A stretch of DNA of 64,000 nucleotides from Escherichia phage JLBYU50, in the sequence record OK272470.1; one strand, written 5' to 3'. The notes under the pieces are model-generated. The model was not told where the DNA came from. It saw only the letters and a program-made list of their open reading frames with translations, and made no database searches. Below are positions 7,150 to 18,067 of this stretch, in pieces. The position numbers and the translations under genes are program-made. Positions within the stretch are counted from its first letter, which is position 1. Each line of letters opens with the position of its first letter.

Positions 7150-7215
7150 TTATTTTTCCTTTGTTTAAAATGTGTTAAACAATCGCAAATGCTTGTGACG
7201 CACTTTGTGATCCCA

Positions 7216-7584: not shown

Positions 7585-7715
7585 TATTTCCTCCTGTACG
7601 GCTCTGTAACGAGCTAATAGCCTCTAAGATATGCAACCACCTTACCTCACAGTAAAACTCGTTACAATCGTTTTTAGGAGGTTTAGGTTGTACTTAAAAA
7701 TAATCTAAAAAGGTG

Positions 7716-7744
7716 TTGACAAACGCAAAAAAGTATGCTACCCT
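7716..7744 (+). promoter_or_regulatory. sigma70-like promoter (TTGACA-N17-TGcTACCCT)
   Basis: perfect -35 hexamer at 7716-7721, extended -10 at 7736-7744. Confidence 0.4.
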
Positions 7745-7925
7745 AACCCCCGAAAAACGCCGAGCGCAGCGAGGGGGTGTTATCTAATCTTGTGATACAT
7801 GATCTAACAGACAACTTAGTAGTCTACATATAGCACTATGTTATGTCTATAATACTAACATACATGCTCTATACTAACAATAGATTCTTTATTAATTTTA
7901 TTATTAATTAAATAATAAATATCTA

Positions 7926-7954
7926 TTGACTTTAGATCTATCTGTATGTAGAGT
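7926..7954 (+). promoter_or_regulatory. sigma70-like promoter upstream of Prs-like gene
   Basis: TTGACT at 7926-7931, 17-nt spacer, TAGAGT at 7949-7954; followed by AAGGAG RBS. Confidence 0.5.
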
Positions 7955-7993
7955 AGAGAACATAAAGTCCTAACTCAACTAAGGAGATAAACA

Positions 7994-8887
7994 ATGAAAG
8001 TTAGTATTCTGCATGGTGTTGACTGTTATGTTACTGATGTAGACGTTAAAGTCTTTACATTCTCTGGTGGAGAACAGCATGTTCAACTAGATACGAATCT
8101 ATCAGGTTTCAATCATGCTACAGACAGAATCTTACTCACTTTAGAAGTAAGATCTGCTAAAGACTTGATGACTTTGGTTATGACTAAGAATGCATTGGAC
8201 AATATGCTATATCATAAACCATATTGTGTTGATTTGCTCATGTTGTATGTGCCGTATGCACGACAAGACAGAGTGTGTGAGCCTGGGGAAGCATTCGGAG
8301 TTAAAGCCTTTGCTTCTATAATTAATTCATTAAATTTCTCACGTGTTATCGTTGCTGATCCACATAGTGATGTTACGCCAGCAGTGTTTGACAGACTCTG
8401 TGTAATACCTCAAGAAGAGATTGCTTACGAAACTTTAAAGTGGAAGTTACGTATGGAGAATTTTGCTCTTGTTAGTCCTGATGGTGGTGCTCTTAAGAAA
8501 ATATTTAAATTATCTAAGAAAATGTCTTTAGATGTGTTCTGTGCAGAGAAGGTTAGAGATACTGCAACAGGTGCTATTGTTCGTACAGACATTTCTGTAC
8601 AGGATTTCAATAAGCGTAACCTGATGATCGTAGATGATATCTGTGATGGTGGTAGAACTTTTATCGAATTGGCTAAAGTGCTACGTGCTCGTAACGCAGG
8701 TAAGATTGAGTTATATGTTACACACGGTATCTTTTCTAAAGGTCTTAAAGAGTTAAGTGAGCACTTTGACTGCATTCATTCTCTTAATGTGTGGGAAGAT
8801 AACATCCAAGAAGATTCCGGTGTTCTTGTTAAGAATCAGCCAGATTTGCAACAACAAATTGTATCTCCATACGTGTGGAATTTTTAA
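7994..8887 (+). CDS. ribose-phosphate pyrophosphokinase (Prs)-like protein; candidate PRPP or ADP-ribose pyrophosphokinase
   Basis: YVPYARQDR, VIVADPHS, VSPDGGAL and PRTase-type nucleotide loop LMIVDDICDGGRTF; strong RBS. Confidence 0.8.
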   Translation: MKVSILHGVDCYVTDVDVKVFTFSGGEQHVQLDTNLSGFNHATDRILLTLEVRSAKDLMTLVMTKNALDNMLYHKPYCVDLLMLYVPYARQDRVCEPGEAFGVKAFASIINSLNFSRVIVADPHSDVTPAVFDRLCVIPQEEIAYETLKWKLRMENFALVSPDGGALKKIFKLSKKMSLDVFCAEKVRDTATGAIVRTDISVQDFNKRNLMIVDDICDGGRTFIELAKVLRARNAGKIELYVTHGIFSKGLKELSEHFDCIHSLNVWEDNIQEDSGVLVKNQPDLQQQIVSPYVWNF

Positions 8888-8897
8888 ATAATAAGTG

Positions 8898-8926
8898 TTG
8901 ACAATAGGGAGTATGCTTAGTAAGAT
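8898..8926 (+). promoter_or_regulatory. sigma70-like promoter upstream of Nampt-family gene
   Basis: TTGACA 8898-8903, 17-nt spacer, TAAGAT 8921-8926. Confidence 0.5.
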
Positions 8927-8958
8927 ACTCCCACACTAACAAACAAGGAGACATAACT

Positions 8959-10692
8959 ATGAATATTTTTGCACCTTTTGCTACTGATTGGTATAAACCT
9001 GGTCACAAGCAGATGTACAACCAAAATACAAAACTCATTTTCTCTAATTTAACTCCTCGTAATGATAAAAACTTTGCACACTATGCAGATCGTGAAGCAC
9101 GTGGTGTGATTGTTTTAGGTATTCGTCGAGCAGTTACTGATGCTCTTGTAACTATGTGGGATGGCTTCTTTAAAATGTCTCGTAGTGCAGCAGTAAATAA
9201 ATTTTATCGTATGTCTAAGAATGCATTAGGTGCTTCTGCTCCTTCTGCTGAATGTTGGGGAGAATTGCACGATTTAGGTTATCTTCCGCTAGAAGTTCGA
9301 TCTCTGCCAGAAGGTGTTTTGTGTCCTATTGGTGTTCCTGTGTTTACTGTGCATAACACTTTAGAAAAATTCTTTTGGTTAACTAACTATGTGGAAACAC
9401 TCTTGTCAGATGAAACTTGGAAGACAATGACTAATGCCACAGCAGCTTTTCAGTATAAGCGTATCGCTATGGCGTATGCGATGGCAACGTGTGATAACAT
9501 TGATCACGTTAATTTCCAGTGTCATGATTTTAGTCTACGTGGCTTAAGCAATATCGAAGATGGTTATAAGAGTGGTATCGCTCATTTGGCATCTTTCACA
9601 GGAACAGATAATATTCTGGCTATTGAAACTGTGCATGATTACTATGGTATTGATTATGATCAATTTGTTGCAGGTTCTATTCCGGCAACAGAACATTCAG
9701 TAGCAACGACTAATATTGGAGCTATTGTTGAAGATCTGAAGAAACATTTCCCACATCTTAAAGATGATGTTGATGGGCTTCGTTATGTAGCAGAGAAAGA
9801 GTTTCTTCGCCGCTATATTGAAGAAATTGTTCCAGAAGGTTTTTGTTCATATGTAGCAGATTCTTATGATTACTGGGCTGTCTTGACTCGCATTCTGGTA
9901 GAATTGAAAGAGTCCATTATGTCACGAAATGGTCGTCTTGTTATTCGTCCAGATTCAGGAGATCCGGTTAAAGTTGTTGCAGGATACAATGTTGAATCTT
10001 TTGATAACTATGAAGACCTTTTAAATAATGGTATTGCGACAGCTACTGAAGTAGTTCATTTGGCTGATGTTAATAAGTATTACAATGTTCTTCAGGATTG
10101 TAGCGTTGCTGATTGTATTGATGAAACTTATGAGATTCCTTATTGTGAAGCAGTAGGTTCTATTCAAATCCTTTGGGAAGTGTTTGGCGGTACTATCAAT
10201 CGAAAAGGCTACAAGGTTCTTGATCAGCACATCGGTATGATTTATGGTGATTCTATTACTGTTGAACGAGAACACGAAATCTTACTCCGACTGAAGAAGA
10301 AAGGCTTTGCTGCTTCCAATATTGTATTTGGTGTTGGTAGTTATACTTATCAGTTCAATACACGAGATACTTTTGGTTTTGCTGTTAAAGCAACAGGTAG
10401 TATCATCGGTGAACACGAAATTTTGGTAAGTAAGGAGCCTAAAACTGATCCTGGTAAACGCTCTGCAAAAGGTTTTATTAAGGTTGTTAAGGATACAAAT
10501 GGTAAACTTTCTCTTGTGGATAATCTTTCTTTTAAAGATATTCAAGATGAAGACAATGAGTTAAAAGTTATCTTCAGGGATGGTACGGTTATTACACCAC
10601 AAGTAGAAGGACGTGATGAAACATTTACTGATATCCGCAACCGTGTTGATGTAGAGGTTCTTCGTACTATGGGAACCATCCAGGTTGACTAA
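8959..10692 (+). CDS. nicotinamide phosphoribosyltransferase (Nampt)-family protein
   Basis: block-by-block match to Nampt: ATDWYKPGHKQ, LPEGV..FTVHNT..FWLTNYVETLL, HDFSLRGLS, FTGTDN, PATEHSV, ADSYDYW, VIRPDSGDP, IVFGVGS..NTRD, DPGKRSAKG. Confidence 0.85.
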   Translation: MNIFAPFATDWYKPGHKQMYNQNTKLIFSNLTPRNDKNFAHYADREARGVIVLGIRRAVTDALVTMWDGFFKMSRSAAVNKFYRMSKNALGASAPSAECWGELHDLGYLPLEVRSLPEGVLCPIGVPVFTVHNTLEKFFWLTNYVETLLSDETWKTMTNATAAFQYKRIAMAYAMATCDNIDHVNFQCHDFSLRGLSNIEDGYKSGIAHLASFTGTDNILAIETVHDYYGIDYDQFVAGSIPATEHSVATTNIGAIVEDLKKHFPHLKDDVDGLRYVAEKEFLRRYIEEIVPEGFCSYVADSYDYWAVLTRILVELKESIMSRNGRLVIRPDSGDPVKVVAGYNVESFDNYEDLLNNGIATATEVVHLADVNKYYNVLQDCSVADCIDETYEIPYCEAVGSIQILWEVFGGTINRKGYKVLDQHIGMIYGDSITVEREHEILLRLKKKGFAASNIVFGVGSYTYQFNTRDTFGFAVKATGSIIGEHEILVSKEPKTDPGKRSAKGFIKVVKDTNGKLSLVDNLSFKDIQDEDNELKVIFRDGTVITPQVEGRDETFTDIRNRVDVEVLRTMGTIQVD

Positions 10693-10763
10693 ATAAAAAC
10701 TTCGTGATAAGATTAAGGTAAGGAGAGCCTGCAACTGCCCTGGATGGGCTTCACGAAGGATTT

Positions 10764-10985
10764 ATGAAACAACATAATTTTTATTTTCGTTGCCGAGCCT
10801 GTAACAGACACTTGACTAATCACTCCCGTAGAGACAGGAATGGTAATATTCAAGAGTCGGATCTATGCTCGATTTGTACAAGTTTGGCATTCGACGACAG
10901 TCCCGAAAGGGTTTATCAACATCAAAGTGTAACTGATCTTCTTCTAAATTACACAGCACCAGAGGAGGAATTAGATTTCACATAA
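10764..10985 (+). CDS. small Cys-rich (zinc-ribbon-like) protein
   Basis: ORF track; CRACNRH...CSIC four-Cys arrangement; GAAGGA RBS. Confidence 0.45.
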   Translation: MKQHNFYFRCRACNRHLTNHSRRDRNGNIQESDLCSICTSLAFDDSPERVYQHQSVTDLLLNYTAPEEELDFT

Positions 10986-10998
10986 TTAAGGAAACAGT

Positions 10999-11109
10999 AT
11001 GTCTACAGAAATTATTTTTGGCTTATCTGTTTTTATTGCTATTGTATCTTTTGTATGCGGTTATACACTAGGTTACAGATCAAGAAAAAATATTGTAAAA
11101 ACTAGTTGA
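10999..11109 (+). CDS. possible 36-aa single-pass membrane peptide
   Basis: below ORF-track cut-off; AAGGAAACAGT-ATG; hydrophobic core IIFGLSVFIAIVSFVCGYTLGY then basic tail. Confidence 0.25.
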   Translation: MSTEIIFGLSVFIAIVSFVCGYTLGYRSRKNIVKTS

Positions 11110-11135
11110 CAACATAGCTAGTTATTTGCTAAGAT
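11106..11135 (+). promoter_or_regulatory. sigma70-like promoter
   Basis: TTGACA 11106-11111, 18-nt spacer, TAAGAT 11130-11135; upstream of 11165 CDS. Confidence 0.45.
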
Positions 11136-11164
11136 AAGCACAAGTTAAACAAAAGGAGAAAACT

Positions 11165-11431
11165 ATGACAGAAAATACTTATGGTAAAGAATTGATTGAG
11201 AAGCACGTATTGATTGATAATAAAGGTGGAGCAATCTTTCTTTTTGATCCTGAATCAGTTCTTACTGAAAACGAAAATGGTAGCGTTAGCCTTAAAACAG
11301 AAAGTTTGGTAATTGACTTCCTTGCTCTTCTGGATGAAATGGGGCTTCCTCACGAAGAAGAAGCAGCTATTGCTTTGATTACAGTTCTTCTGGAGAAACG
11401 CGAAGCTGGTGAAATGACCCAGTATGCTTAA
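11165..11431 (+). CDS. hypothetical protein (88 aa)
   Basis: ORF track; AAAAGGAG RBS. Confidence 0.5.
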   Translation: MTENTYGKELIEKHVLIDNKGGAIFLFDPESVLTENENGSVSLKTESLVIDFLALLDEMGLPHEEEAAIALITVLLEKREAGEMTQYA

Positions 11432-11438
11432 TATTCAA

Positions 11439-11514
11439 GGTTCCATAGCTCACTGACGAGAGCGCACACCTCATAAGTGTCGAGGGCAGGGATTGTAACC
11501 CTGGGGAACCACCA
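11439..11514 (+). tRNA. tRNA with CAT anticodon (Met/Ile-type), non-canonical D- and T-loops
   Basis: complete cloverleaf: acceptor GGTTCCA/GGGAACC, D-stem GCTC/GAGC, anticodon loop CTCATAA, T-stem CAGGG/CCCTG, encoded ACCA; T-loop is ATTGTAA rather than TTCRANY. Confidence 0.45.
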
Positions 11515-11545
11515 TTTAAAAGGAGGTGCTATGCATCTCCTATAT

Positions 11546-11631
11546 GCAAGTGTGGTGGAATTGGTGATACACATTGTGCTTAAAACGCAACGCTTAAATG
11601 CTTGAGGGTTCGAATCCCTCCACTTGCACCA
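11546..11631 (+). tRNA. tRNA-Leu (anticodon TAA)
   Basis: acceptor GCAAGTG/CACTTGC, anticodon loop CTTAAAA, long variable arm, T-loop GGTTCGAATCC, ACCA encoded. Confidence 0.8.
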
Positions 11632-11647
11632 ACACCTAAAAAAATAT

Positions 11648-11677
11648 CTTGACATTTACTTAGTTTTTTGTTATAGT
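11648..11677 (+). promoter_or_regulatory. sigma70-like promoter inside tRNA array
   Basis: TTGACA 11648-11653, 18-nt spacer, TATAGT 11672-11677. Confidence 0.45.
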
Positions 11678-11687
11678 TACTATGAAA

Positions 11688-11769
11688 ACGGGGTGTATCT
11701 CACCTGACTTCTAATCAGGCGTTAACCGAGTAATTGGAGTATGCAGGTTCGAATCCTGTCACCCCGGCC
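11688..11769 (+). tRNA. atypical tRNA-like gene, anticodon hairpin reads TCT (Arg-type)
   Basis: perfect acceptor CGGGGTG/CACCCCG, canonical T-arm GCAGG-TTCGAAT-CCTGT, GCCA 3' end, perfect hairpin CCTGA-CTTCTAA-TCAGG; no conventional D-arm fits between acceptor and this hairpin. Confidence 0.4.
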
Positions 11770-11787
11770 AAAAAGTTTTAAAAACTA

Positions 11788-11817
11788 CTTGACAAGCAAG
11801 ATAGTTTTATGTTAGAT
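11788..11817 (+). promoter_or_regulatory. sigma70-like promoter inside tRNA array
   Basis: TTGACA 11788-11793, 18-nt spacer, TAGATT 11812-11817. Confidence 0.4.
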
Positions 11818-11833
11818 TTAAAGTATAATAACT

Positions 11834-11923
11834 GGAAGGTAGGGCGCAGCGGTGCGCAACCAGGTTTGAACCCTGGCCCATTGTAGCGATACGGTGATGG
11901 TTCGACTCCATTATCTTCCTCCA
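11834..11923 (+). tRNA. tRNA-Ser (anticodon TGA)
   Basis: acceptor GGAAGGT/ATCTTCC, anticodon stem CCAGG/CCTGG with loop TTTGAAC, long variable arm, T-loop TTCGACT, TCCA 3' end. Confidence 0.7.
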
Positions 11924-11929
11924 AATTCA

Positions 11930-12094
11930 ATGAGTGATTTTATGAATTATAAAACTATTGGACAGGTTGTTACCGGAGTTAAGATTGTAAATAATAAAGT
12001 TGTTTATGAGTATTCTAATCTTCAACAATCTGAAGATGGTAAGAATATTCGTATGGTAAAAGAAGAACAAAAAGATTCCGGTTGTTTTGAATAA
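11930..12094 (+). CDS. possible small protein (54 aa) between tRNA genes
   Basis: ORF-track ORF 11894..12094 starts inside the tRNA-Ser; first ATG after the tRNA is at 11930; no clear RBS. Confidence 0.25.
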   Translation: MSDFMNYKTIGQVVTGVKIVNNKVVYEYSNLQQSEDGKNIRMVKEEQKDSGCFE

Positions 12095-12102
12095 TTAAAA
12101 AC

Positions 12103-12188
12103 GGTAGATTGGTGAAATGGTAGCCACAACAGTTTGCTAAACTGTCGTCGGAAACGGCGTGTAGGTTCAAGTCCTACATCTACCGCCA
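12103..12188 (+). tRNA. tRNA-Ser (anticodon GCT)
   Basis: acceptor GGTAGAT/ATCTACC, anticodon stem ACAGT/ACTGT loop TTGCTAA, long variable arm, T-arm TAGG-TTCAAGT-CCTA, GCCA. Confidence 0.8.
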
Positions 12189-12315
12189 AGTTATCTTTAA
12201 TGTAGCTTGTCATCTTACTTTAATAGAGTAAACTTTCGGCAGATGGCCCCCCACCATCTTACCGATATCCCATAGTCAAGTGCCGCAAACACTGGCTATT
12301 TTAAAGATAATTTAT

Positions 12316-12391
12316 ACATCGTTAGCTTAGTTGGTAGAGCAAGGGGCTTTTAACTCCAAGGTCGAAGGTTCGAATCCTTCACGATGTACCA
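12316..12391 (+). tRNA. tRNA-Lys (anticodon TTT)
   Basis: acceptor ACATCGT/ACGATGT, D-arm TAGCTTAGTTGGTAGAGC, anticodon loop CTTTTAA, T-loop GGTTCGAATCC, ACCA. Confidence 0.75.
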
Positions 12392-12396
12392 AACAC

Positions 12397-12483
12397 GTAG
12401 GTATCGCATAGCGGCAATTGCTGGAGACTGTAAATCTCTTGCCCTTCGGGGCTTCGTTGGTTCGAGTCCAACTACCTGCACCA
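12397..12483 (+). tRNA. tRNA-Tyr (anticodon GTA)
   Basis: acceptor GTAGGTA/TACCTGC, anticodon loop CTGTAAA, long variable arm, T-arm GTTGG-TTCGAGT-CCAAC, ACCA. Confidence 0.75.
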
Positions 12484-12490
12484 AATTAAA

Positions 12491-12575
12491 GATGGATTGG
12501 CCTAGTGGTTGGGCGACGGACTGTTAATCCGTGAACGAAAGTTCTAGCAAGGTTCAAATCCTTGATCCATCGCCA
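12491..12575 (+). tRNA. tRNA with GTT anticodon (Asn-type) carrying a long variable arm
   Basis: acceptor GATGGAT/ATCCATC, anticodon stem ACGGA/TCCGT loop CTGTTAA, 15-nt variable hairpin GAAC-GAAA-GTTC, T-loop GGTTCAAATCC, GCCA. Confidence 0.55.
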
Positions 12576-12580
12576 AATAG

Positions 12581-12646
12581 TGCTTGTAGAGTTAATAGAA
12601 ACCTCTAGAATTTTCTAGAATTGTAGGTATCAAATCCTACCAAGCA
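12581..12646 (+). other. degenerate tRNA-like remnant
   Basis: acceptor-like TGCTTG/CAAGCA and T-arm-like GTAGG-TATCAAAT-CCTAC, but no foldable anticodon arm and no CCA. Confidence 0.25.
12604..12620. repeat. tandem direct repeat TCTAGAA-TTT-TCTAGAA
   Basis: two copies of TCTAGAA (each containing palindromic TCTAGA) separated by TTT, read directly at 12604-12620. Confidence 0.7.
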
Positions 12647-12654
12647 AATATTTT

Positions 12655-12729
12655 GCTCCTATCGTATAACGGCTATTACGGTTGCCTTGTAAGCAACTTA
12701 TCAGGGTTCGAGTCCTTGTGGGAGCACCA
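12655..12729 (+). tRNA. tRNA-Thr (anticodon TGT)
   Basis: acceptor GCTCCTA/TGGGAGC, anticodon stem GTTGC/GCAAC loop CTTGTAA, T-loop GGGTTCGAGTCC, ACCA. Confidence 0.8.
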
Positions 12730-12751
12730 ATTTAACTCTAAAGGAGTGTAT

Positions 12752-13075
12752 GTGACAGAAAAAGAGTTAGAGGAATATTTTAATATCAATGTTTTCGATG
12801 GTTTTGATGATATTGAAGATGTTGAAAGATATTATGAAGTAGAGTTAGATAAGGATAACATTGTAATTCTTTCTGCAACTTATGATTGTGCATATTATGA
12901 AGGCGAATCTCACGTTTATTTTTATGATATGAAAACATCTTTGTTTTATGAAGTACACGCATATCATTGTTCTTGTTATGGCTTAGAAGGTCAGTGGGAA
13001 CCTGAAGAAATAGGTGATTTGGACTTTACTATTGCATATCTAAACAGACGTGGTGCATCTACTATTTTAAAATAA
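12752..13075 (+). CDS. hypothetical protein (107 aa)
   Basis: ORF-track ORF 12653..13075 starts inside tRNA-Thr; start re-set to in-frame GTG at 12752, 5 nt after AAGGAG. Confidence 0.4.
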   Translation: MTEKELEEYFNINVFDGFDDIEDVERYYEVELDKDNIVILSATYDCAYYEGESHVYFYDMKTSLFYEVHAYHCSCYGLEGQWEPEEIGDLDFTIAYLNRRGASTILK

Positions 13076-13089
13076 ATATCAAAAGCCTC

Positions 13090-13119
13090 TTGACAAAGGG
13101 GCTAATAATATGTTAGAGT
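13090..13119 (+). promoter_or_regulatory. sigma70-like promoter inside tRNA array
   Basis: TTGACA 13090-13095, 18-nt spacer, TAGAGT 13114-13119. Confidence 0.4.
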
Positions 13120-13130
13120 AATATTGTTAA

Positions 13131-13205
13131 GCGGGTATAGTGTTAATGGTAGCATATGAGGTTTCCACCCTCCAGGTGCAGGTTCAAGTCCTGTTACTCG
13201 CTCCA
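13131..13205 (+). tRNA. tRNA-Gly (anticodon TCC)
   Basis: acceptor GCGGGTA/TACTCGC, anticodon loop TTTCCAC, T-arm GCAGG-TTCAAGT-CCTGT, TCCA. Confidence 0.75.
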
Positions 13206-13304
13206 AGATTATTTAAATGGAATCGCTAGAGAAAATTTCTCTTTTCGCTCATGGTTTTCTCCTTCAAACTCTAGCGGTTCTTTTTAAGTGATTTTTAGTT
13301 TTAT

Positions 13305-13379
13305 TGGAGATTAGCCTAGTGGGAAGGCAACGGCCTTTGAAGTCGTGATGACTAGGTTCGATTCCTAGATCTCCAGCCA
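13305..13379 (+). tRNA. tRNA-Gln (anticodon TTG)
   Basis: acceptor TGGAGAT/ATCTCCA, D-arm GCCTAGTGGGAAGGC, anticodon loop CTTTGAA, T-arm CTAGG-TTCGATT-CCTAG, GCCA. Confidence 0.8.
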
Positions 13380-13386
13380 ATATTTA

Positions 13387-13462
13387 CAGTGCGTAGCGCA
13401 GTTGGTAGCGTGGGAGCCTTGGACGCTTCAGGTCGCAGGTTCGAGTCCTGCCGCACTGACCA
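13387..13462 (+). tRNA. tRNA-Pro (anticodon TGG)
   Basis: acceptor CAGTGCG/CGCACTG, D-arm GCGCAGTTGGTAGCGT, anticodon loop CTTGGAC, T-arm GCAGG-TTCGAGT-CCTGC, ACCA. Confidence 0.8.
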
Positions 13463-13467
13463 AATTT

Positions 13468-13542
13468 GCAGAGATAGCTGAGACGGATTAGTGCTACCCT
13501 GAAAAGGTAGAAAGGATGGATCGTTACCATCTCTCTGCACCA
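13468..13542 (+). tRNA. tRNA-Phe (anticodon GAA)
   Basis: acceptor GCAGAGA/TCTCTGC, anticodon stem CTACC/GGTAG loop CTGAAAA, T-stem GATGG/CCATC (loop ATCGTTA), ACCA. Confidence 0.7.
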
Positions 13543-13617
13543 AATATCACCATCCAAGGAGTAGACTTGGTTAACTGTCAATAGCACATTGAGGCTTCTT
13601 ACAGTGGTGTATTTTAT

Positions 13618-13702
13618 GGCTAAGTGGTGGAATGGTATACACGATACGCTTAGAACGTATTGCCCCAAGGGATTGTGAGTTCGAGTCTCACCTTAGCTAC
13701 CA
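13618..13702 (+). tRNA. tRNA-Leu (anticodon TAG)
   Basis: acceptor GGCTAAG/CTTAGCT, anticodon stem ATACG/CGTAT loop CTTAGAA, long variable arm, T-arm GTGAG-TTCGAGT-CTCAC, ACCA. Confidence 0.8.
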
Positions 13703-13780
13703 TATCTAAGAGATATCATAGGGTTTGCAACGGATATCTACCGTCCTGTTAAGGATACCACGCCAAGACGGGTTATAAAG

Positions 13781-13856
13781 GGTTAGCCATTGATAGTGTG
13801 AAGCTGGCGTTTCGAGTGCTTTCATAAGGCATTGCGAGAAGAGTTCGATCCTCTTA
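13781..13856 (+). tRNA. tRNA with CAT anticodon (Met or Ile-lysidine type)
   Basis: perfect acceptor TGATAGT/ACTATCA, anticodon loop TTCATAA, T-arm AAGAG-TTCGATC-CTCTT, ACCA. Confidence 0.65.
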
Positions 13857-13871
13857 CTATCAACCAAATTA

Positions 13872-13950
13872 TTACAGATTGTGCGGGATAGAGGAGTCTG
13901 GTCGTCCTCGCCAGTTTCATATGCTGGAGATCATCGGTTCGAATCCGATT
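13872..13950 (+). tRNA. tRNA with CAT anticodon (Met or Ile-lysidine type), 1:72 mismatch
   Basis: acceptor TGCGGGA/TCCCGCC with unpaired first position, anticodon loop TTCATAT, T-arm ATCGG-TTCGAAT-CCGAT, TCCA. Confidence 0.6.
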
Positions 13951-13994
13951 CCCGCCTCCAATAAATACCTCCCTTCTGGTGTAATGATTAAGTT

Positions 13995-14091
13995 ACATTG
14001 ACACTTCAAGGAACTCATAGCCGGGTAGATTTAAAAGAGTATGGTACTCAATATGGCTCCAAACCATAGATCAGGGGGTTCGATTCCTCAC
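13995..14091 (+). tRNA. tRNA-like element with Trp-type anticodon arm (CCA); 5' half non-canonical
   Basis: perfect anticodon arm TATGG-CTCCAAA-CCATA, T-loop GGTTCGATTCC, GCCA 3' end; no 7-bp acceptor partner at the expected distance, only a 5-bp CAAGG/CCTTG pairing about 40 nt upstream. Confidence 0.35.
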
Positions 14092-14106
14092 CTTGCTGCC
14101 AATTAT

Positions 14107-14182
14107 TGTGGTATCGTACAGATGGTTAGTACACTCGACCGATAATCGAGAAACAACGGTTCGACTCCGTTTACCACGACCA
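14107..14182 (+). tRNA. tRNA-Ile (anticodon GAT)
   Basis: acceptor TGTGGTA/TACCACG, D-arm GTAC-AGATGGTTA-GTAC, anticodon stem CTCGA/TCGAG loop CCGATAA, T-arm AACGG-TTCGACT-CCGTT, ACCA. Confidence 0.75.
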
Positions 14183-14293
14183 AACTCCGTGCCAGCGGTG
14201 TCTTCGAAGAACAAGCCTAGTTCCTTCTGAGATGGAGGGGTGCGACTCCTTAACGCACAATATACTACTACTAAATACTTATCAGGAGATATC

Positions 14294-14563
14294 ATGTATA
14301 CTTTAAAAGTAATTCGCAAGTTTCCTCAAGAAGAGGAAGTAAGAATTTATAACACTGTACCATTCGTAGTAAATGAAGAAGAATTCTTTTATTGCTTAGA
14401 AGATGAAGTAATTATTCAATATCATTGGGAAGGTTACGACAGACAAGATGGTGTTGTAGCTTCTGTGCTTGCTGGTGATAGAGTGTTATTCATTCACAAG
14501 ACTGAATCAGCATATCTAATGAATGATAAAGGACAAACTGTTAAAGTAATTAACAGACCATAA
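14294..14563 (+). CDS. hypothetical protein (89 aa)
   Basis: ORF-track frame; start re-set to ATG 14294 preceded by AGGAGA RBS. Confidence 0.5.
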   Translation: MYTLKVIRKFPQEEEVRIYNTVPFVVNEEEFFYCLEDEVIIQYHWEGYDRQDGVVASVLAGDRVLFIHKTESAYLMNDKGQTVKVINRP

Positions 14564-14574
14564 AGAATTTTATA

Positions 14575-14607
14575 AAAGCCTCCTTTTTGGAGGTTTTTTA
14601 TTATCTA
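14575..14607 (+). terminator. rho-independent terminator
   Basis: GCCTCC-TTTTT-GGAGG stem-loop followed by TTTTTTATTAT. Confidence 0.6.
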
Positions 14608-14669
14608 TAAAATAAAGATCTTTACAAAACGTATAAAATATGTTATCCTTAAGTAAGGAGGTGCATATT

Positions 14670-14960
14670 ATGCCTAAATTGAAAAGAGGTCGAGGTAGAC
14701 CTACAGCCGAAATGCAACAGATTTATGCTATGGATGCTGCACAGGCGCAAGTAAAAGAAATTTTTGCTGGTCGTTATTTAGATGCTATGCGTTACATTGC
14801 AGATCTTGTTGTAGATGAAAAGGCTTCTGCTAATATTAAGTTGACTGCTTCTAAGATCATCAAAGAACAAGTAGAAGAATGGCTGGAAGAACATTATGAA
14901 TCTATGGAAGAAGAAGATATTCTTCCAGAAAATTCTCCCCCTCAAAAAATCGTTATCTAA
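14670..14960 (+). CDS. small protein with AT-hook-like KRGRGRP motif (possible DNA-binding protein)
   Basis: ORF-track frame; start re-set to ATG 14670 after AAGGAGG RBS; PKLKRGRGRPTAE near N-terminus, acidic C-terminus. Confidence 0.5.
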   Translation: MPKLKRGRGRPTAEMQQIYAMDAAQAQVKEIFAGRYLDAMRYIADLVVDEKASANIKLTASKIIKEQVEEWLEEHYESMEEEDILPENSPPQKIVI

Positions 14961-14972
14961 TTCTCCTCTCTT

Positions 14973-15040
14973 GGGAACTTTGTTCCCCCTCTCCTTGTTA
15001 ATTAACACCCCTTTCCGAAAGGTTAGGGGGTTTTTTATTT
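14973..15040 (+). terminator. tandem stem-loops ending in a U-tract
   Basis: GGGAAC-TTT-GTTCCC (14973-14987) then CACCCC...GGGGG hairpin followed by TTTTTTATTTT (15008-15040). Confidence 0.55.
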
Positions 15041-15098
15041 TATACCTATTGCTTTTATATATGTTTTTATGATATGATTAATACAGGAGGACTATAAA

Positions 15099-15272
15099 AT
15101 GAGAAACTATGTAGCTAAACACGATTTTAATAGGGCTTCTTATCACAGAGATAAGAAGAACAGTTATTCGCGTAAATGGGATCTGGAGGAAGAGTTAGAC
15201 TATGATTACAGAAGAACAATGGAAGGAGATTTTGGAGAATGCACAACCGATGGTAGTGAAGAAGATAGTTAA
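15099..15272 (+). CDS. small hydrophilic protein (57 aa)
   Basis: below ORF-track cut-off; ACAGGAGG RBS 8 nt upstream of ATG. Confidence 0.35.
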   Translation: MRNYVAKHDFNRASYHRDKKNSYSRKWDLEEELDYDYRRTMEGDFGECTTDGSEEDS

Positions 15273-15307
15273 TAATTCACCAAATCTGCCTAAAGTAAAA
15301 TTTAAAG

Positions 15308-15739
15308 ATGATGATACTGACTATGTTAATAAACCTACTGAAGAATAAATGGGTTAGGTATTTTGTTCTTATTATAGCACTATTTGGTGGTTTGTATGTT
15401 GGTTTAAACAAATTACACGATGACGTGTATGCACAAGGCTACAACGCAGGTGTTGCTAAACAAGAACAAATATTACAACAAAACCAAATTAAAGCAAAAC
15501 AGCAATTCGATATCTTACAAGCAAAAGCAGATTCAGAAAGATCTAAATTGAATGAAAAAATTCATTCATTAACGAAAGAAAGAAATGATCTTCTTACACA
15601 ACTGGATAAGAAGAGTAATAACATAACACAAGAGAGAATAGATTATGCGAAAACATCTTCTGGCGCTATGTCTTGTTTTAGCCCTAATGATGACGGGTTG
15701 CGCATCATCAACAACAGCTTCCCAGCCTCTACTGATTGA
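15308..15739 (+). CDS. i-spanin (Rz-like): N-terminal TM helix plus periplasmic coiled coil
   Basis: TM segment YFVLIIALFGGLYVGL followed by Q/K-rich heptad region; 3' end overlaps the lipoprotein ORF in another frame; exact start uncertain. Confidence 0.5.
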   Translation: MMILTMLINLLKNKWVRYFVLIIALFGGLYVGLNKLHDDVYAQGYNAGVAKQEQILQQNQIKAKQQFDILQAKADSERSKLNEKIHSLTKERNDLLTQLDKKSNNITQERIDYAKTSSGAMSCFSPNDDGLRIINNSFPASTD

Positions 15740-15974
15740 GCAGTGTAAAGCTGTAGCAACACAACAAATAAAAGCCCCTGATTCTGTCAGTATGGAAAAA
15801 CCATCTACCCCTGTTTTATATACCCCTAATCAAATAAAGAAAGGAGTTACAAGATCAGAGGTAGTTGAGAATCAAACTTTAAACAACGCTTTGTGGGAAA
15901 AAGATAGGATAAAACTTATCAGTTTACAAAACTATATTAAAACATTACAAAGTGAAGGAATAATTTCTAATTAG
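15645..15974 (+). CDS. o-spanin (Rz1-like) outer-membrane lipoprotein
   Basis: signal peptide MRKHLLALCLVLALMMTGC with lipobox Cys; gene starts inside the preceding ORF (15645-15739 overlap). Confidence 0.55.
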   Translation: MRKHLLALCLVLALMMTGCASSTTASQPLLIEQCKAVATQQIKAPDSVSMEKPSTPVLYTPNQIKKGVTRSEVVENQTLNNALWEKDRIKLISLQNYIKTLQSEGIISN

Positions 15975-15982
15975 GAGGAGAT

Positions 15983-18067
15983 GTGGCAAGGAAACCTGTC
16001 AAACAATCTTTTGAAAATGTAGATATTGAAGTTAAAGCCCAACCTGGCAAACAAACACTAGCTATGGATCTTATGCCTGAAGTAATGATTTATGGTGGTG
16101 CGGCAGGTTGTGTTTCAGCAGAAACAGAATACCTAACAAGAGACGGTTGGAAACAAATAAGTGAATATGATGGTGAGGATATTTATCAATACAATCCAAG
16201 AAATAAACGTCTTGAATTAGTTACACCATCTTTTGTAGAATATGATGCTAAAGATAATCTGTATTGTATCACAAACGGAGTAGGTGTCTTCCAAGAATTA
16301 AGTATGGAACATCGCTTTGTTTTCTACAAGAAGAAAAAATCCAAAAAACATTTTGAAATTCTTGTTGGGGATCTTATTGCACTACAGCAAGCAGGACACC
16401 CATTACGAGGATATATTGAAAATCCTTTTGGTAAGCGTGTTCCGTTTAACATTCAAGGTAAACCTAGCACATACCTAAAAATTCATGAGGTAATGACAAG
16501 TGATGATAAGAAATATTGCTTTGAAACTCCAAGCAGTTATGTCGTGTTTAGACGTGGCGATCACATCTTCGTTACTGGGAATAGCGGCAAAAGCCGTCTG
16601 CTACTTCTAAAGGCACTTAAATACGCATATAAAGATCCACTGTTTGGTGGTATTCTTTTCCGTAAAAATACAACAGCTTTACGTAAATCTGGTGGTTTGT
16701 TTACTGAAGCTAAAAAACTTTATCTACCATTAAAGCCTCACGTAAGAGAACAGGCTATGGAGATGGAGTTCAGAGCCACAAAAGGTGGTACACTTAAATT
16801 TGACCATCTTGAAAATGATAACGTAACTGCTGAAACTAACCATCAAGGTACACAGTATTCGATGGTGGGGTTTGACGAACTTACACATTTTACACAATAT
16901 GAAATGCTATATCTGTTAGGGCGTATGCGTTCTGAATCAGAAACGTCTTTTATGCTGTGTACTTGTAACCCTGATGCGGATAGTTGGGTGTTAAAGTGGG
17001 TACTTCCTTATTTGGATGAAGCTGGTTATCCACGAGAAGATATGTGTGGCAAACAGCTATACTTTCTTATTGTACAAGATGAACCAGTATTTGCTGAAAC
17101 AGCAGAAGAGTTGAAAGAAAAGTATCCTGAAAACTGTTTTATGCAAAACCCGAACACAGGTGAAACAGTGGTTATTGAACCACAAACATTTGTGTTCATT
17201 GGTGGTACTATCTTTGATAACCCTGAACTAATAAGACTTAACCCTAAATACTTAGCTTCTTTGAAGGCTCAAACCGCCGTTAAGAGAGCACAGCTTTTAG
17301 ATGGTTGTTGGTTTGCTCGTGCACAAGAAGAGAGTTTCTTTAACAGAGAATGGTTACACGTTATCAAGTTTAAAGATTTACCAAACAATCTTAAATATAT
17401 GCGAGCGTGGGATAAAGCAGTATCTGTTCCAACAGAATCTTATCGTTATCCTGACTACACAACATCTGTTAAAATGGCTAAAGACTCGGATGGAAATTAT
17501 TACATTTTTGGTGATTATGATTATGATGCTCACGATGAAGGTAGTAAGATTTTTGGTAGATTCAGAAGACTACCAGGTGACAGAGATAATTTAATTCTAA
17601 ACCAATGTAAGATTGATGGAGATGAAGTTACAGTTGTATTGCCAAAAGATCCTTCTGGTGCTGGTTTGATTGAATATACAGAATCAGCTAAAAAACTAAT
17701 TGCTGAAGGGTTTGTTGTTAAACCAGATGCTATGCCTGGTAACAAGAAAAAATTACAACGCTTTATGCCATTTAGTAGTGCTTGTCAAAATGGTTTTGTT
17801 TATATTGTAGAAGAATCTTTCCCTAACAAAGAAACTCTTGATCATTTCTATAAAGAGATGGAGTCATTTAATGGAGAAAGATCTACGGCAACATTAAAAG
17901 ATGATATTCCAGATGCTGCTGCATCTTGCTTTAATACTTTGTCAAAAGAACAGATGTTTAAAGCAGTAGCAATACCTTCTGCAACAAATGCATTAACAGG
18001 GTACGGTAAGATGGGTGGAAGATCAAGAAACTCTTTATCTTCTCCATACAGTATCAGAGGAAGATAA
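15983..18067 (+). CDS. terL: terminase large subunit (intein-containing precursor)
   Basis: 694-aa ORF first in the packaging/head block, GTG start after AGGAGG; Walker A GGAAG/SGKS is split by an intein-like insert. Confidence 0.75.
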   Translation: MARKPVKQSFENVDIEVKAQPGKQTLAMDLMPEVMIYGGAAGCVSAETEYLTRDGWKQISEYDGEDIYQYNPRNKRLELVTPSFVEYDAKDNLYCITNGVGVFQELSMEHRFVFYKKKKSKKHFEILVGDLIALQQAGHPLRGYIENPFGKRVPFNIQGKPSTYLKIHEVMTSDDKKYCFETPSSYVVFRRGDHIFVTGNSGKSRLLLLKALKYAYKDPLFGGILFRKNTTALRKSGGLFTEAKKLYLPLKPHVREQAMEMEFRATKGGTLKFDHLENDNVTAETNHQGTQYSMVGFDELTHFTQYEMLYLLGRMRSESETSFMLCTCNPDADSWVLKWVLPYLDEAGYPREDMCGKQLYFLIVQDEPVFAETAEELKEKYPENCFMQNPNTGETVVIEPQTFVFIGGTIFDNPELIRLNPKYLASLKAQTAVKRAQLLDGCWFARAQEESFFNREWLHVIKFKDLPNNLKYMRAWDKAVSVPTESYRYPDYTTSVKMAKDSDGNYYIFGDYDYDAHDEGSKIFGRFRRLPGDRDNLILNQCKIDGDEVTVVLPKDPSGAGLIEYTESAKKLIAEGFVVKPDAMPGNKKKLQRFMPFSSACQNGFVYIVEESFPNKETLDHFYKEMESFNGERSTATLKDDIPDAAASCFNTLSKEQMFKAVAIPSATNALTGYGKMGGRSRNSLSSPYSIRGR
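16109..16582 (+). other. mini-intein (158 aa, no endonuclease domain) in TerL P-loop
   Basis: begins CVSAETEYLT (Cys1), block-B-like SMEHRF, ends HIFVTGN with +1 Ser; excision would give GGAAGSGKSRLL. Confidence 0.7.

What the first reader, a model, noticed from the sequence alone, without database searches (positions are those of the whole stretch)
12491..12646. GTT-anticodon tRNA with a type-II long variable arm, next to a degenerate tRNA-like remnant with tandem TCTAGAA repeats
Seen: 12491..12575 folds with anticodon loop CTGTTAA (GTT, normally a type-I Asn tRNA) yet has a 15-nt variable hairpin (GAAC-GAAA-GTTC) typical of Leu/Ser/Tyr tRNAs. Directly downstream (12581..12646) is an acceptor-like and T-arm-like sequence with no anticodon arm, containing TCTAGAA-TTT-TCTAGAA. 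Inference: either an unusual functional tRNA (possible identity switch or suppressor) plus a decayed duplicate, or a recombination scar.
Basis: seen in the sequence. Interest (0 to 1): 0.5.

Follow-up and report, generated by a model that had tools for sequence, protein, structure and literature searches.

The report
Long-armed phage asparagine tRNA plus RNA3
A coliphage carries an intact asparagine tRNA with an extra hairpin arm normally seen only in Ser/Leu/Tyr tRNAs, followed by a conserved tRNA-like RNA rather than a dead gene; this arm turns out to be common in phage asparagine tRNAs and may help them escape bacterial immune enzymes that cut tRNAs.

Summary
Window 12491..12575 is an 85-nt tRNA with anticodon GTT and a 15-nt variable region (4-bp stem, GAAA loop). 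ARAGORN and Rfam both call it, and phi92-like phages annotate it as tRNA-Asn.

The "identity switch or suppressor" reading is unlikely:
- It has the E. coli AsnRS identity set (GUU anticodon plus G73).
- Its anticodon arm matches host tRNA-Asn at 16 of 17 positions.
- It has canonical 7/5 acceptor/T geometry.
- It lacks G2-C71 and Ser-type arm geometry, and it lacks the A73 needed by TyrRS and LeuRS.

The extra arm is conserved with compensatory changes across phi92-, phAPEC8-, PVP-SE1- and T5-like phages. About 12% of viral tRNA-Asn genes in a database-order sample are long-armed, and the form also occurs in bacterial tRNA arrays. I found no paper describing this.

The downstream "remnant" (12580..12648) is not decayed. 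It is the homologue of phage T5 "RNA3, putative tRNA-like RNA". It is single-copy, always sits directly after tRNA-Asn, and has covarying acceptor and T stems. The TCTAGAA repeat is the two strands of a palindromic hairpin.

The tRNA lies in a Lys-Tyr-Asn-RNA3-Thr block. Lys, Asn and Thr match the host tRNAs cut by PARIS, and Tyr matches the retron-associated nuclease target. That the arm shields the tRNA from such nucleases is an untested inference.

The parts
12491..12575 (+). tRNA-Asn(GUU) with a long variable arm, 85 nt, with encoded CCA. Layout: acceptor 12491-12497 / 12565-12571; D arm 12500-12514; anticodon arm 12516-12532; T arm 12548-12564.
   Evidence: ARAGORN; Rfam tRNA 56.5 bits; annotated tRNA-Asn in phi92, PHI92_t008; 100% of cells paired and 14 of 25 pairs compensatory in 9 distinct homologues.
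12523..12525 (+). Anticodon GTT within the loop CTGTTAA. Positions 36-41 read TAATCC, identical to host tRNA-Asn.
   Evidence: Host sequence verified in 5425 of 5426 E. coli genomes.
12533..12547 (+). Variable region GAAC-GAAA-GTTC-TAG: 4-bp stem, GNRA tetraloop, 3 unpaired nt on the 3' side.
   Evidence: Three of the 4 stem pairs change on both sides among homologues while the GAAA loop stays constant.
12572..12575 (+). Discriminator G73 followed by the encoded CCA end.
   Evidence: Read directly from the sequence.
12580..12648 (+). tRNA-like RNA, homologue of phage T5 RNA3. Layout: acceptor-like stem 12581-12586 / 12641-12646; invariant TGTAGAGTTAA segment 12585-12595; central hairpin; T-arm-like hairpin 12623-12640.
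   Evidence: nhmmer E = 1e-13; covariance model 62.8 bits; T5 record misc_RNA rna3 'putative tRNA-like RNA'; stems 94% paired with 7 of 12 pairs compensatory; RNAalifold agrees; no Rfam tRNA hit at E <= 10.
12604..12619 (+). Central hairpin TCTAGA-ATTT-TCTAGA, in the place of an anticodon arm. It is 8 nt shorter than in the phAPEC8-type copy.
12316..12391 (+). tRNA-Lys(UUU), 5 nt upstream of tRNA-Tyr. Positions 36-41 read TAACTC, against host UAAUCA.
   Evidence: Host site as quoted in PMC12409363.
12397..12483 (+). tRNA-Tyr(GUA), 7 nt upstream of tRNA-Asn.
12655..12729 (+). tRNA-Thr(UGU), 8 nt downstream of the RNA3-like element. Positions 36-41 read TAAGCA, against host UAAUCA.
   Evidence: Host site as quoted in PMC12409363.

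Best explanation
**The tRNA.** Window 12491..12575 is a working phage tRNA-Asn. It is transcribed as part of a tightly packed run of tRNAs (Lys, Tyr, Asn, RNA3-like, Thr, with spacers of 4-8 nt) and cut out by the host tRNA-processing enzymes. Host asparaginyl-tRNA synthetase most likely charges it with asparagine, because that enzyme reads the GUU anticodon and discriminator G73, and both are present. It then decodes AAC and AAU.

Its variable region carries a conserved mini-hairpin (3-4 bp capped by a GNRA loop, here GAAC-GAAA-GTTC). AsnRS does not need this region, so the hairpin can be tolerated.

**Why the arm is kept (inference, about 0.3).** The arm may change the shape of the tRNA core next to the 3' strand of the anticodon stem. 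Host immune nucleases that recognise host tRNA-Asn would then fail on the phage copy, letting it replace the host tRNA when that is destroyed. An example is PARIS AriB, which cuts host tRNA-Lys(UUU), Thr(UGU) and Asn(GUU) between positions 40 and 41.

**The downstream element.** Window 12580..12648 is the homologue of T5 RNA3. It is a conserved tRNA-shaped RNA without an anticodon loop that travels with tRNA-Asn. It is most likely excised like a tRNA. Its function is unknown, but a processing helper or a decoy are the most plausible roles.

**Shown:** gene structure, conservation, covariation, identity elements and distribution. **Inferred:** charging, expression and any anti-nuclease role.
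For: **Real tRNA**
- ARAGORN and Rfam both call it.
- Across 9 distinct homologues from phi92-, phAPEC8-, PVP-SE1-, T5-like, Providencia and Klebsiella phages, all 222 pair cells are standard pairs. 14 of 25 pairs change on both sides, including 3 of 4 in the extra arm. Slid controls give 31-51% paired.

**Asn identity**
- Bacterial Asn identity is the anticodon plus G73, and it can be transplanted into tRNA-Lys (review PMC9976931). Both elements are present.
- The anticodon arm matches host tRNA-Asn at 16 of 17 positions.
- In the first, capped viral scan, nearly all of the 105 long GTT tRNAs have G73. Of the 116 unique long GTT tRNAs pooled from the viral and genome scans, 78 begin with U1, as bacterial tRNA-Asn does.

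**Not Ser, Tyr, Leu or allo-tRNA**
- It has A2-U71, whereas G2-C71 is absolutely conserved in E. coli tRNA-Ser.
- Arm geometry is 3-4 bp with 3-4 unpaired 3' nt. tRNA-Ser from the same loci has mostly 4-7 bp with 0-1 unpaired nt.
- G73 is an antideterminant for LeuRS and TyrRS.
- Acceptor/T geometry is 7/5, not 8/4 or 9/3.

**Widespread**
- 13 of 108 viral tRNA-Asn genes in a database-order sample are long-armed.
- 11 of the 16 long GTT tRNAs confirmed in cellular genomes lie in arrays of 10-36 tRNAs.

**Defence context**
- AriB's main targets are host Lys(UUU), Thr(UGU) and Asn(GUU), cut at 40|41.
- In the window, the adjacent Lys and Thr carry substitutions at positions 39-41. Asn keeps the host site but has the arm.
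- An RNA ligase/kinase/phosphoesterase repair set lies 7 kb upstream.
- Bas33 carries intact long-arm tRNA-Asn and long-arm tRNA-Thr(UGU). It was rescued under PARIS by T5 tRNA-Lys alone, whereas T7, which has no tRNAs, also needed tRNA-Thr.

**RNA3-like element:**
Against: - I found no expression, charging or cleavage data for any long-arm tRNA-Asn.
- The published PARIS rescue and the amber-suppressor note concern T5's own tRNA-Asn, which is a 78-nt short-arm gene.
- tRNA genes of Bas63, which is identical to the window here, were mostly non-essential on four laboratory strains.
- T4 and T7 did not need a supplied tRNA-Asn under PARIS, and host tRNA-Asn is only a minor AriB target. Selection from PARIS on Asn may therefore be weak.
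- Long arms also occur at about 4.6% in other normally short viral tRNA types, and a third of viral tRNA-Leu lack the arm. This fits general structural looseness rather than a specific device.
- Outside the anticodon arm, the body is only about 50% identical to host tRNA-Asn and has no clear nearest relative.
- From my own knowledge, class II synthetases approach tRNA from the variable-loop side, so an arm could hinder AsnRS. This was not tested.
Confidence: 0.7

Rival explanations
1. Tolerated structural drift. The extra hairpin has no function of its own. AsnRS reads only the anticodon and G73, so an insertion in the variable region was neutral. Once present, it had to stay a stable hairpin to avoid misfolding. 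The tRNA is simply a supplementary tRNA-Asn for codon supply.
For: - Variable-arm length is generally plastic in viral tRNAs. 31 of 675 other normally short tRNAs are 80 nt or longer, and 23 of 70 tRNA-Leu are short.
- LeuRS and AsnRS are known not to need this region.
- Bas63 tRNAs are mostly dispensable in the laboratory.
- Covariation in the arm is equally expected if the only constraint is correct folding.
Against: - The arm is retained with the same build across several phage families despite about 25% sequence divergence.
- Many unrelated long tRNA-Asn lineages share the architecture: tetraloop in 73 of 116, GNRA in 61 of 116, and a 3-4 nt 3' spacer.
- Asn is long about 2.4 times more often than other short types.
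- Long-arm copies often coexist with a normal tRNA-Asn on the same contig (20 loci). That is odd for a neutral variant.
Confidence: 0.3
2. Identity switch or deliberate mistranslation. The long arm recruits seryl-tRNA synthetase (or TyrRS), so AAC/AAU codons are partly read as Ser (or Tyr). This would resemble allo-tRNAs or the nematode long-arm tRNAs that carry the wrong amino acid.
For: - SerRS identity rests mainly on the long arm and ignores the anticodon, and G73 and G1-C72 are shared with tRNA-Ser.
- T5-like copies also have G2-C71.
- Some metagenomic long GTT tRNAs have a clearly Ser-like D arm, for example L040 and L060.
- Allo-tRNAs show that such tRNAs exist and insert Ser in E. coli.
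Against: - The window copy has A2-U71.
- Its arm is short (4 bp) with 3 unpaired 3' nt, unlike the Ser arms from the same loci.
- Its D arm is a compact type-I-like 4-bp stem with a 7-nt loop.
- The full Asn identity set and a host-identical anticodon arm are conserved.
- 78 of the 116 long GTT tRNAs carry U1.
- A73, required by TyrRS and LeuRS, is absent.
- Proteome-wide Asn-to-Ser substitution would be costly for a lytic phage.
Confidence: 0.05
3. The downstream element is a dead tRNA gene. It would be a decaying duplicate or recombination scar with no function, conserved only because the phages are close relatives.
For: - It has no anticodon loop, an aberrant 8-nt T loop and no encoded CCA in the window.
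- ARAGORN and Rfam tRNA do not detect it.
- The window lineage has an 8-nt deletion in the central arm.
- It is absent from PVP-SE1, PR1, KP2025 and SelmaRatti.
- T5 annotates it only as 'putative'.
Against: - It is kept next to tRNA-Asn in T5-like siphoviruses and in phi92- and phAPEC8-like myoviruses.
- Its acceptor and T stems are 94% paired, and 7 of 12 pairs change on both sides. Slid controls give 29-43%.
- A T5-type variant (L338) has two compensatory double changes in the central hairpin.
- An 11-nt segment, TGTAGAGTTAA, is invariant.
- It is spaced like a real tRNA, 4 and 8 nt from its neighbours.
Confidence: 0.2

Closest known systems
Host (E. coli) tRNA-Asn(GUU), a type-I tRNA
   Same: Same anticodon, same G73 discriminator, and an anticodon arm identical at 16 of 17 positions, including the AriB site U36-A-A-U-C-C41. 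Acceptor/T geometry is 7/5 and CCA is encoded.
   Different: The host has a 5-nt variable loop, and the phage has a 15-nt hairpin arm. The host has U1-A72, and the window copy has G1-C72. The acceptor, D and T sequences are only about 50% identical.
Bacterial class II (type II) tRNAs: Ser, Leu, Tyr
   Same: A stem-loop in the variable region. The arm geometry (3-4 bp, about 1 unpaired nt on the 5' side and 3 on the 3' side) is closest to bacterial tRNA-Tyr.
   Different: The anticodon belongs to a type-I family. It has G73 rather than the A73 of Tyr and Leu. It lacks the G2-C71 and the long 4-7 bp arm of Ser. The D arm is compact, and GNRA loops are far more frequent (61 of 115, against 4 of 43 in Tyr).
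Allo-tRNAs and selC*-like tRNAs (Mukai et al. 2017, PMC5389517)
   Same: Long variable arm combined with anticodons of non-Ser families. Found in bacteria and phage tRNA clusters.
   Different: Allo-tRNAs are defined by 8/4 or 9/3 acceptor/T geometry and Ser or Ala identity elements. This tRNA is 7/5 and carries the Asn identity set.
[quoted passage not shown]
   Same: The same three isoacceptors are encoded together in a phage tRNA cluster. The window's Lys and Thr, like T5 tRNA-Lys, have substitutions at positions 39-41.
   Different: T5's own tRNA-Asn is a 78-nt short-arm tRNA with a diverged, mismatched anticodon stem. The window's tRNA-Asn keeps the host stem and has the extra arm instead. 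Resistance of the long-arm form has not been tested.
Phage T5 RNA3, 'putative tRNA-like RNA' (GenBank AY543070, misc_RNA rna3); more loosely, the small stable RNAs in the T4 and T5 tRNA clusters
   Same: The window element 12580..12648 is a sequence and structure homologue at the same position, directly 3' of tRNA-Asn.
   Different: The window copy lacks the CCA-like 3' end of the T5 copy. Its acceptor and T-stem sequences differ but remain compensated, and its central hairpin is shortened. No function is known for any member.

Membership tests
Canonical elongator tRNA (Rfam RF00005) | Cloverleaf with a 7-bp acceptor stem, 5-bp T stem, GTTCRANYC T loop, GG in the D loop, and a 7-nt anticodon loop with U33 and purine 37 | tested here: met
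   56.5 bits against a gathering score of 29, full-length model match. ARAGORN drawing. All pairs kept in 9 homologues.
tRNA-Asn (E. coli AsnRS identity set) | Anticodon G34 U35 U36 and discriminator G73 | tested here: met
   Read from the sequence. Rule from PMC9976931.
tRNA-Asn (E. coli AsnRS identity set) | Actual aminoacylation with asparagine | not testable with these tools
   Needs an in vitro charging assay or acid-gel Northern blots or tRNA-seq from infected cells.
Class II (long variable arm) tRNA architecture | Variable region longer than 10 nt forming a base-paired stem-loop | tested here: met
   15 nt, 4 bp plus a GAAA loop. Three of 4 pairs covary.
tRNA-Ser identity (E. coli SerRS) | G2-C71 acceptor pair, absolutely conserved in E. 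coli tRNA-Ser | tested here: not met
   The window copy has A2-U71. Rule. T5-like homologues do have G2-C71.
tRNA-Ser identity (E. coli SerRS) | Ser-type long arm and tertiary structure (longer stem, at most 1 unpaired nt before the T stem) | tested here: not met
   The arm is 4 bp with 3 unpaired 3' nt. Ser tRNAs of the same loci have mostly 4-7 bp with 0-1 unpaired nt.
tRNA-Tyr and tRNA-Leu identity (E. coli TyrRS, LeuRS) | Discriminator A73 | tested here: not met
   It has G73, which is listed as an antideterminant against LeuRS and TyrRS.
Allo-tRNA | 8/4 or 9/3 acceptor/T-stem composition | tested here: not met
   It is 7/5. Definition from PMC5389517.
Suppressor tRNA | Anticodon complementary to a stop codon | tested here: not met
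   The anticodon is GTT, which reads AAC/AAU.
T5 RNA3 family (downstream element) | Sequence and structure homology to T5 rna3, and position directly 3' of tRNA-Asn | tested here: met
   nhmmer E = 1e-13. Covariance model 62.8 bits, single copy. T5 annotation.
T5 RNA3 family (downstream element) | Accumulates as a stable small RNA | not testable with these tools
   No expression data are available here, and T5 itself labels RNA3 only as 'putative'.
Canonical tRNA (downstream element) | Anticodon arm with a 7-nt loop; detectable by tRNA models | tested here: not met
   No ARAGORN call. No Rfam tRNA hit at E <= 10. The central arm is a 6-bp hairpin with a 4-nt loop.
Bacterial Y RNA (YrlA-like) with a Ro60 partner (downstream element) | Match to a Y RNA model, and a nearby Ro60/TROVE gene | tested here: not met
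   No Rfam Y-RNA hit. No TROVE domain in the 15 flanking ORFs tested within 432..18067. The idea came from PMC11482910.

The most novel reading that the evidence does not exclude
Phages may routinely bolt small GNRA-capped hairpins onto otherwise host-like tRNAs. Examples seen here are the variable region of tRNA-Asn and tRNA-Thr, and the D loop of tRNA-Lys in PVP-SE1. These would act as structural shields that keep synthetase identity intact while blocking recognition by tRNA-cutting immune nucleases such as PARIS AriB. The long-arm tRNA-Asn would be the commonest example of this second escape route, which is distinct from the anticodon-stem and anticodon-loop point mutations described so far. 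The co-travelling RNA3-like RNA could be a decoy or a processing partner.
Probability: 0.25. Interest if true: 0.75.

Novelty: new variant of a known kind. Interest (0 to 1): 0.55.

Why it matters
Textbook bacterial tRNA classification reserves the long variable arm for Leu, Ser, Tyr and Sec. Here a conserved long-arm tRNA-Asn sits in well-studied coliphage groups (phi92/Bas63, phAPEC8, PVP-SE1 and many T5-like phages). Roughly one in eight viral tRNA-Asn genes sampled has the arm, as do copies in bacterial tRNA arrays.

**If the arm is only tolerated:** the variable region is free to vary whenever the synthetase ignores it. That matters for tRNA annotation, because isotype models may flag such genes as mismatched.

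**If the arm protects against tRNA-targeting immunity:** it is a new, structure-based counter-defence principle. It is directly testable with existing reagents: purified AriB, BASEL phages Bas32, Bas33 and Bas63, and the PARIS strains.

**Side result:** Bas34's annotated tRNA-Asn looks like a broken chimera. That would explain why Bas34 needed T5 tRNA-Asn supplied under PARIS.

Tried and rejected
1. **T5 experiments as evidence for the long-arm form.** I first assumed T5's tRNA-Asn was long-armed. Reading the T5 record showed a 78-nt short-arm gene, so the PARIS rescue and amber-suppressor data do not apply.
2. **Bas34 as a test.** I first mistook IrisVonRoten for Bas34; it is Bas32. The real Bas34, SelmaRatti, has an annotated 77-nt tRNA-Asn that is a 5'-truncated call on a chimeric gene with a broken acceptor stem. 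ARAGORN does not call it. It says nothing about arm function.
3. **Ro60/Y-RNA idea from the Bas63 knockout paper.** I found no TROVE domain in the flanking ORFs tested and no Y-RNA hit.
4. **Nearest-neighbour analysis of the tRNA body.** This was meant to find a Ser, Leu, Tyr or Asn ancestor. It was indecisive, with all identities about 50-70%.
5. **blastn of the tRNA against E. coli genomes.** No match, so there is no prophage or host copy at that sensitivity.
6. **A loose DNA pattern for RNA3 in viral contigs.** It gave mostly chance hits, so I replaced it with nhmmer and a covariance model.
7. **Literature searches for a described long-arm tRNA-Asn.** Nothing found. The pre-open-access T5-era literature is not searchable here.
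8. **TCTAGAA as a meaningful repeat.** The word is not enriched.
Full report
**What the window is.** The 2.9-kb stretch around the finding is 97-99% identical to phi92-like Escherichia phages (Justusliebigvirus: PATM, Paula, outra, phi92, Bas63/EmilieFrey). The finding lies inside a cluster of 16 ARAGORN-called tRNA genes, all on the + strand, at 11439..14182. Rfam adds one more at 11689..11767.

**Checking the tRNA.**
- ARAGORN calls 12491..12575 as tRNA-Asn(gtt), 85 nt.
- Rfam's tRNA model matches full-length at 56.5 bits (gathering score 29) and puts the extra bases in the variable region.
- ARAGORN draws a 7-bp acceptor stem and a 3-bp D stem; Rfam and the MFE fold add a fourth, U13-G22 pair. 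It also draws a 5-bp anticodon stem with loop CTGTTAA, a variable hairpin GAAC-GAAA-GTTC followed by TAG, a 5-bp T stem with loop TTCAAAT, discriminator G and an encoded CCA.
- The free-energy fold gives the same structure.
- phi92 annotates it as tRNA-Asn, PHI92_t008.

**The arm is conserved, not a one-off.**
- A 177-nt query covering the tRNA and the downstream element finds 188 phage records.
- Long tRNA-Asn genes of 82-86 nt are annotated in phAPEC8-like (ukendt), T5-like (Lindwurm, IrisVonRoten/Bas32, HildyBeyeler/Bas33), PVP-SE1, Providencia PR1 and Klebsiella KP2025 phages.
- On an alignment of nine distinct sequences, every one of 222 pair cells of the cloverleaf-plus-arm is a standard pair.
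- 14 of 25 pairs show changes on both sides. In the extra arm, 3 of 4 pairs covary: GAAC/GTTC, GTTC/GAAC, GTC/GAC, GAGT/ACTC, GAGA/TCTC.
- The GAAA loop is constant. Sliding the partners gives only 31-51% pairing.

**Which amino acid?**
- According to the tRNA identity review, bacterial Asn identity is the anticodon plus G73 and can be transplanted into tRNA-Lys. The phage tRNA has both.
- I confirmed the host tRNA-Asn sequence in 5425 of 5426 complete E. coli genomes. The phage anticodon arm differs from it at a single position, G27 to A.
[quoted passage not shown] The window tRNA has A2-U71.
- Its arm differs in geometry from Ser arms. Among 115 long GTT tRNAs the arm is typically 3-4 bp with 3-4 unpaired nt on the 3' side. 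In 59 Ser tRNAs from the same loci it is mostly 4-7 bp with 0-1 unpaired nt. Tyr has 3 bp with 3 unpaired nt.
- TyrRS and LeuRS need A73, and G73 is a listed antideterminant against both.
- Acceptor/T geometry is 7/5, so this is not an allo-tRNA.
- The body outside the anticodon arm has no clear nearest relative, at 50-70% identity to everything. Its origin cannot be resolved.

I conclude it is most likely charged with Asn. This remains an inference.

**How common are long-arm GTT tRNAs?**
- A capped scan of IMG/VR for the Asn anticodon loop followed by an over-long variable region gave 105 ARAGORN-confirmed GTT tRNAs of 79 nt or more, from very diverse contigs. Twenty loci also hold a normal-length tRNA-Asn.
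- Nearly all of these have G73.
- Of 116 unique long GTT tRNAs (viral and genome scans pooled), 78 start with U1, 73 have a tetraloop and 61 have a GNRA loop, GAAA in 38.
- A second scan that accepted any variable length, read in database order, gave 13 long among 108 tRNA-Asn genes (12%). The long ones sit in denser tRNA clusters.
- In the same loci, other normally short isotypes are 80 nt or longer in 31 of 675 cases (4.6%), and 23 of 70 tRNA-Leu are short. Asn is enriched but not unique.
- In one-genome-per-species bacterial and archaeal contigs, only 16 of 120 pattern hits were real long GTT tRNAs. Eleven of those lie in arrays of 10-36 tRNAs per 8 kb, and three look like intron-bearing archaeal genes.
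- No paper in the searchable library describes a long-arm tRNA-Asn.

**Defence context.**
- PARIS AriB depletes and cuts host tRNA-Lys(UUU), Thr(UGU) and, less efficiently, Asn(GUU) between positions 40 and 41. T5 tRNA-Lys, Thr and Asn together neutralise it.
- A retron-associated nuclease targets tRNA-Tyr, and phage tRNA-Tyr rescues.
- The window encodes exactly Lys(UUU)-Tyr-Asn-[element]-Thr(UGU), with spacers of 4-8 nt.
- Its Lys and Thr read TAACTC and TAAGCA at positions 36-41, against the host UAAUCA. These are changes at the positions shown to block AriB.
- Its Asn reads TAATCC, identical to the host site, and carries the extra arm instead.
- Seven kilobases upstream lies an RNA-repair set: a T4 Rnl1-type ligase, a kinase, a phosphoesterase and a cyclic-phosphate-processing domain. 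NAD-salvage genes lie just before the cluster.

This makes an anti-defence role for the block plausible. It also suggests, but does not show, that the arm is an alternative escape route.

**Corrections made along the way.**
- T5 itself has a 78-nt short-arm tRNA-Asn with a diverged anticodon stem. The published experiments therefore did not test a long-arm form.
- Bas34 (SelmaRatti) has an annotated tRNA-Asn that is really the 5' part of a long-arm gene fused to a foreign 3' end. Three of 7 acceptor pairs are mismatched, and ARAGORN does not call it. That may explain why Bas34 needed T5 tRNA-Asn.
- Bas33 (HildyBeyeler) has intact long-arm tRNA-Asn (86 nt) and long-arm tRNA-Thr(UGU) (87 nt). 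It was rescued under PARIS by T5 tRNA-Lys alone, whereas tRNA-less T7 also needed tRNA-Thr. This is indirect support that long-arm versions of normally short tRNAs work and survive AriB. It is stronger for Thr than for Asn, because T4 and T7 did not need extra Asn.

**The downstream element.**
- The T5 GenBank record annotates the sequence directly after its tRNA-Asn as misc_RNA rna3, 'RNA3, putative tRNA-like RNA'.
- The window element aligns to it.
- A profile search finds 20 copies in the fetched loci, in three sequence types (phi92-type, phAPEC8-type, T5-type), each directly after a tRNA-Asn.
- A covariance model finds exactly one copy per genome, 12580..12648 in the window at 62.8 bits. 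It finds none in PVP-SE1, PR1, KP2025 or SelmaRatti.
- The acceptor-like and T-like stems are 94% paired, and 7 of 12 pairs change on both sides. Slid controls give 29-43%. RNAalifold predicts the same stems.
- The central hairpin varies in length. In the T5-type variant L338 it carries two compensatory double changes. The window lineage has lost 8 nt there, leaving TCTAGA-ATTT-TCTAGA.
- An 11-nt segment, TGTAGAGTTAA, is invariant.
- The element is not detected by tRNA models, and TCTAGAA is not enriched in the window.

This is a conserved tRNA-shaped RNA of unknown function, not a decaying duplicate. With only three lineages, the number of independent substitution events is small.

**Verdict.**
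- 'Identity switch or suppressor' is unlikely.
- 'Decayed remnant' is not supported.
- The genes are already annotated in public records, but the class-II-like architecture of a tRNA-Asn, its breadth in phages and tRNA arrays, and its possible link to tRNA-targeting immunity appear undescribed.
- The mechanism of the arm remains open between a structural shield (about 0.25-0.3) and tolerated variation (about 0.3).

Noticed in passing
window 3209..5991 (- strand): An RNA-repair gene set: AAA_33 kinase (3209..3613), T4 Rnl1-type RNA ligase PF09511 (3614..4546), Metallophos_2 phosphoesterase (4548..5099) and a cyclic-phosphate-processing receiver domain (5617..5991). It resembles the T4 Pnk/Rnl1 toolkit that mends tRNAs cut by anticodon nucleases.
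   Followed up: partly
window 7994..10692 (+ strand): A PRPP-synthetase-like protein (7994..8887) and an NAPRTase-family protein (8959..10692) lie directly upstream of the tRNA cluster. They look like an NAD-salvage pair, possibly countering NAD-depleting defences.
   Followed up: no
window 11689..11767 and 14024..14100 (+ strand): Rfam calls a tRNA at 11689..11767 (38.6 bits) that ARAGORN misses and phi92 does not annotate. There is also a weak tRNA-Sec-like match (22 bits, E = 0.3) at 14024..14100, between tRNA-Met and tRNA-Ile. These may be further aberrant or tRNA-like RNAs in the cluster.
   Followed up: no
window 11834..11923 (+ strand): The tRNA-Ser(tga) is not reported by the general Rfam tRNA model. 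It matches only the tRNA-Sec model, below threshold (35 bits against 47), and it is flagged as a pseudogene in phi92.
   Followed up: no
L251 17598..17681 (Escherichia phage SelmaRatti = Bas34, MZ501103): The annotated 77-nt tRNA-Asn is a 5'-truncated call on a chimeric gene. Its 5' part is identical to the long-arm tRNA-Asn of Lindwurm, but its 3' acceptor strand ACCCGCT cannot pair with GGGTCGT. ARAGORN does not call it. It is probably a deletion pseudogene, which may explain why Bas34 needed T5 tRNA-Asn under PARIS.
   Followed up: yes
L479 7551..7636 and 12775..12861 (Escherichia phage HildyBeyeler = Bas33, MZ501074): Bas33 carries an intact long-arm tRNA-Asn (86 nt, GCAA loop) and a long-arm tRNA-Thr(UGU) (87 nt). 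A T5-like IMG/VR contig (L054) also has an 87-nt tRNA-Thr(UGU). T5 itself has short forms of both.
   Followed up: partly
L004 248..333 (Salmonella phage PVP-SE1): The annotated 86-nt tRNA-Lys(UUU) owes its length to a GAC-GCAA-GTC mini-hairpin inserted in the D loop, not to the variable region. ARAGORN cannot type it. The D loop is the second AriB contact proposed in PMC12409363.
   Followed up: no
IMG/VR loci L008..L127 and L371..L477: Variable-arm length is plastic in viral tRNAs. Long-arm forms of Thr(UGU), Met, Ile(UAU/GAU) and Lys occur, and about one third of viral tRNA-Leu are under 80 nt, so they lack the long arm.
   Followed up: partly
genome loci L133, L142, L156, L174, L178, L199, L202, L210, L230, L235, L240: Long-arm tRNA-Asn(GUU) also sits in dense tRNA arrays (10-36 tRNAs per 8 kb) of Thermoguttaceae, Mycobacterium, Saprospiraceae, Verrucosispora, Haliscomenobacter and others. 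Some arrays also hold long tRNA-Lys(UUU) of 88-90 nt.
   Followed up: partly
L248 (phage T5, AY543070) 26000..42000: The T5 record lists eight further small RNAs in its tRNA region: RNA1 and RNA2 ('tRNA-like stable RNA'), RNAI, RNAIII, RNAIV, RNA2H, RNAX and RNA3. All are of unknown function. Only RNA3 has a homologue in the window by the covariance-model search.
   Followed up: partly
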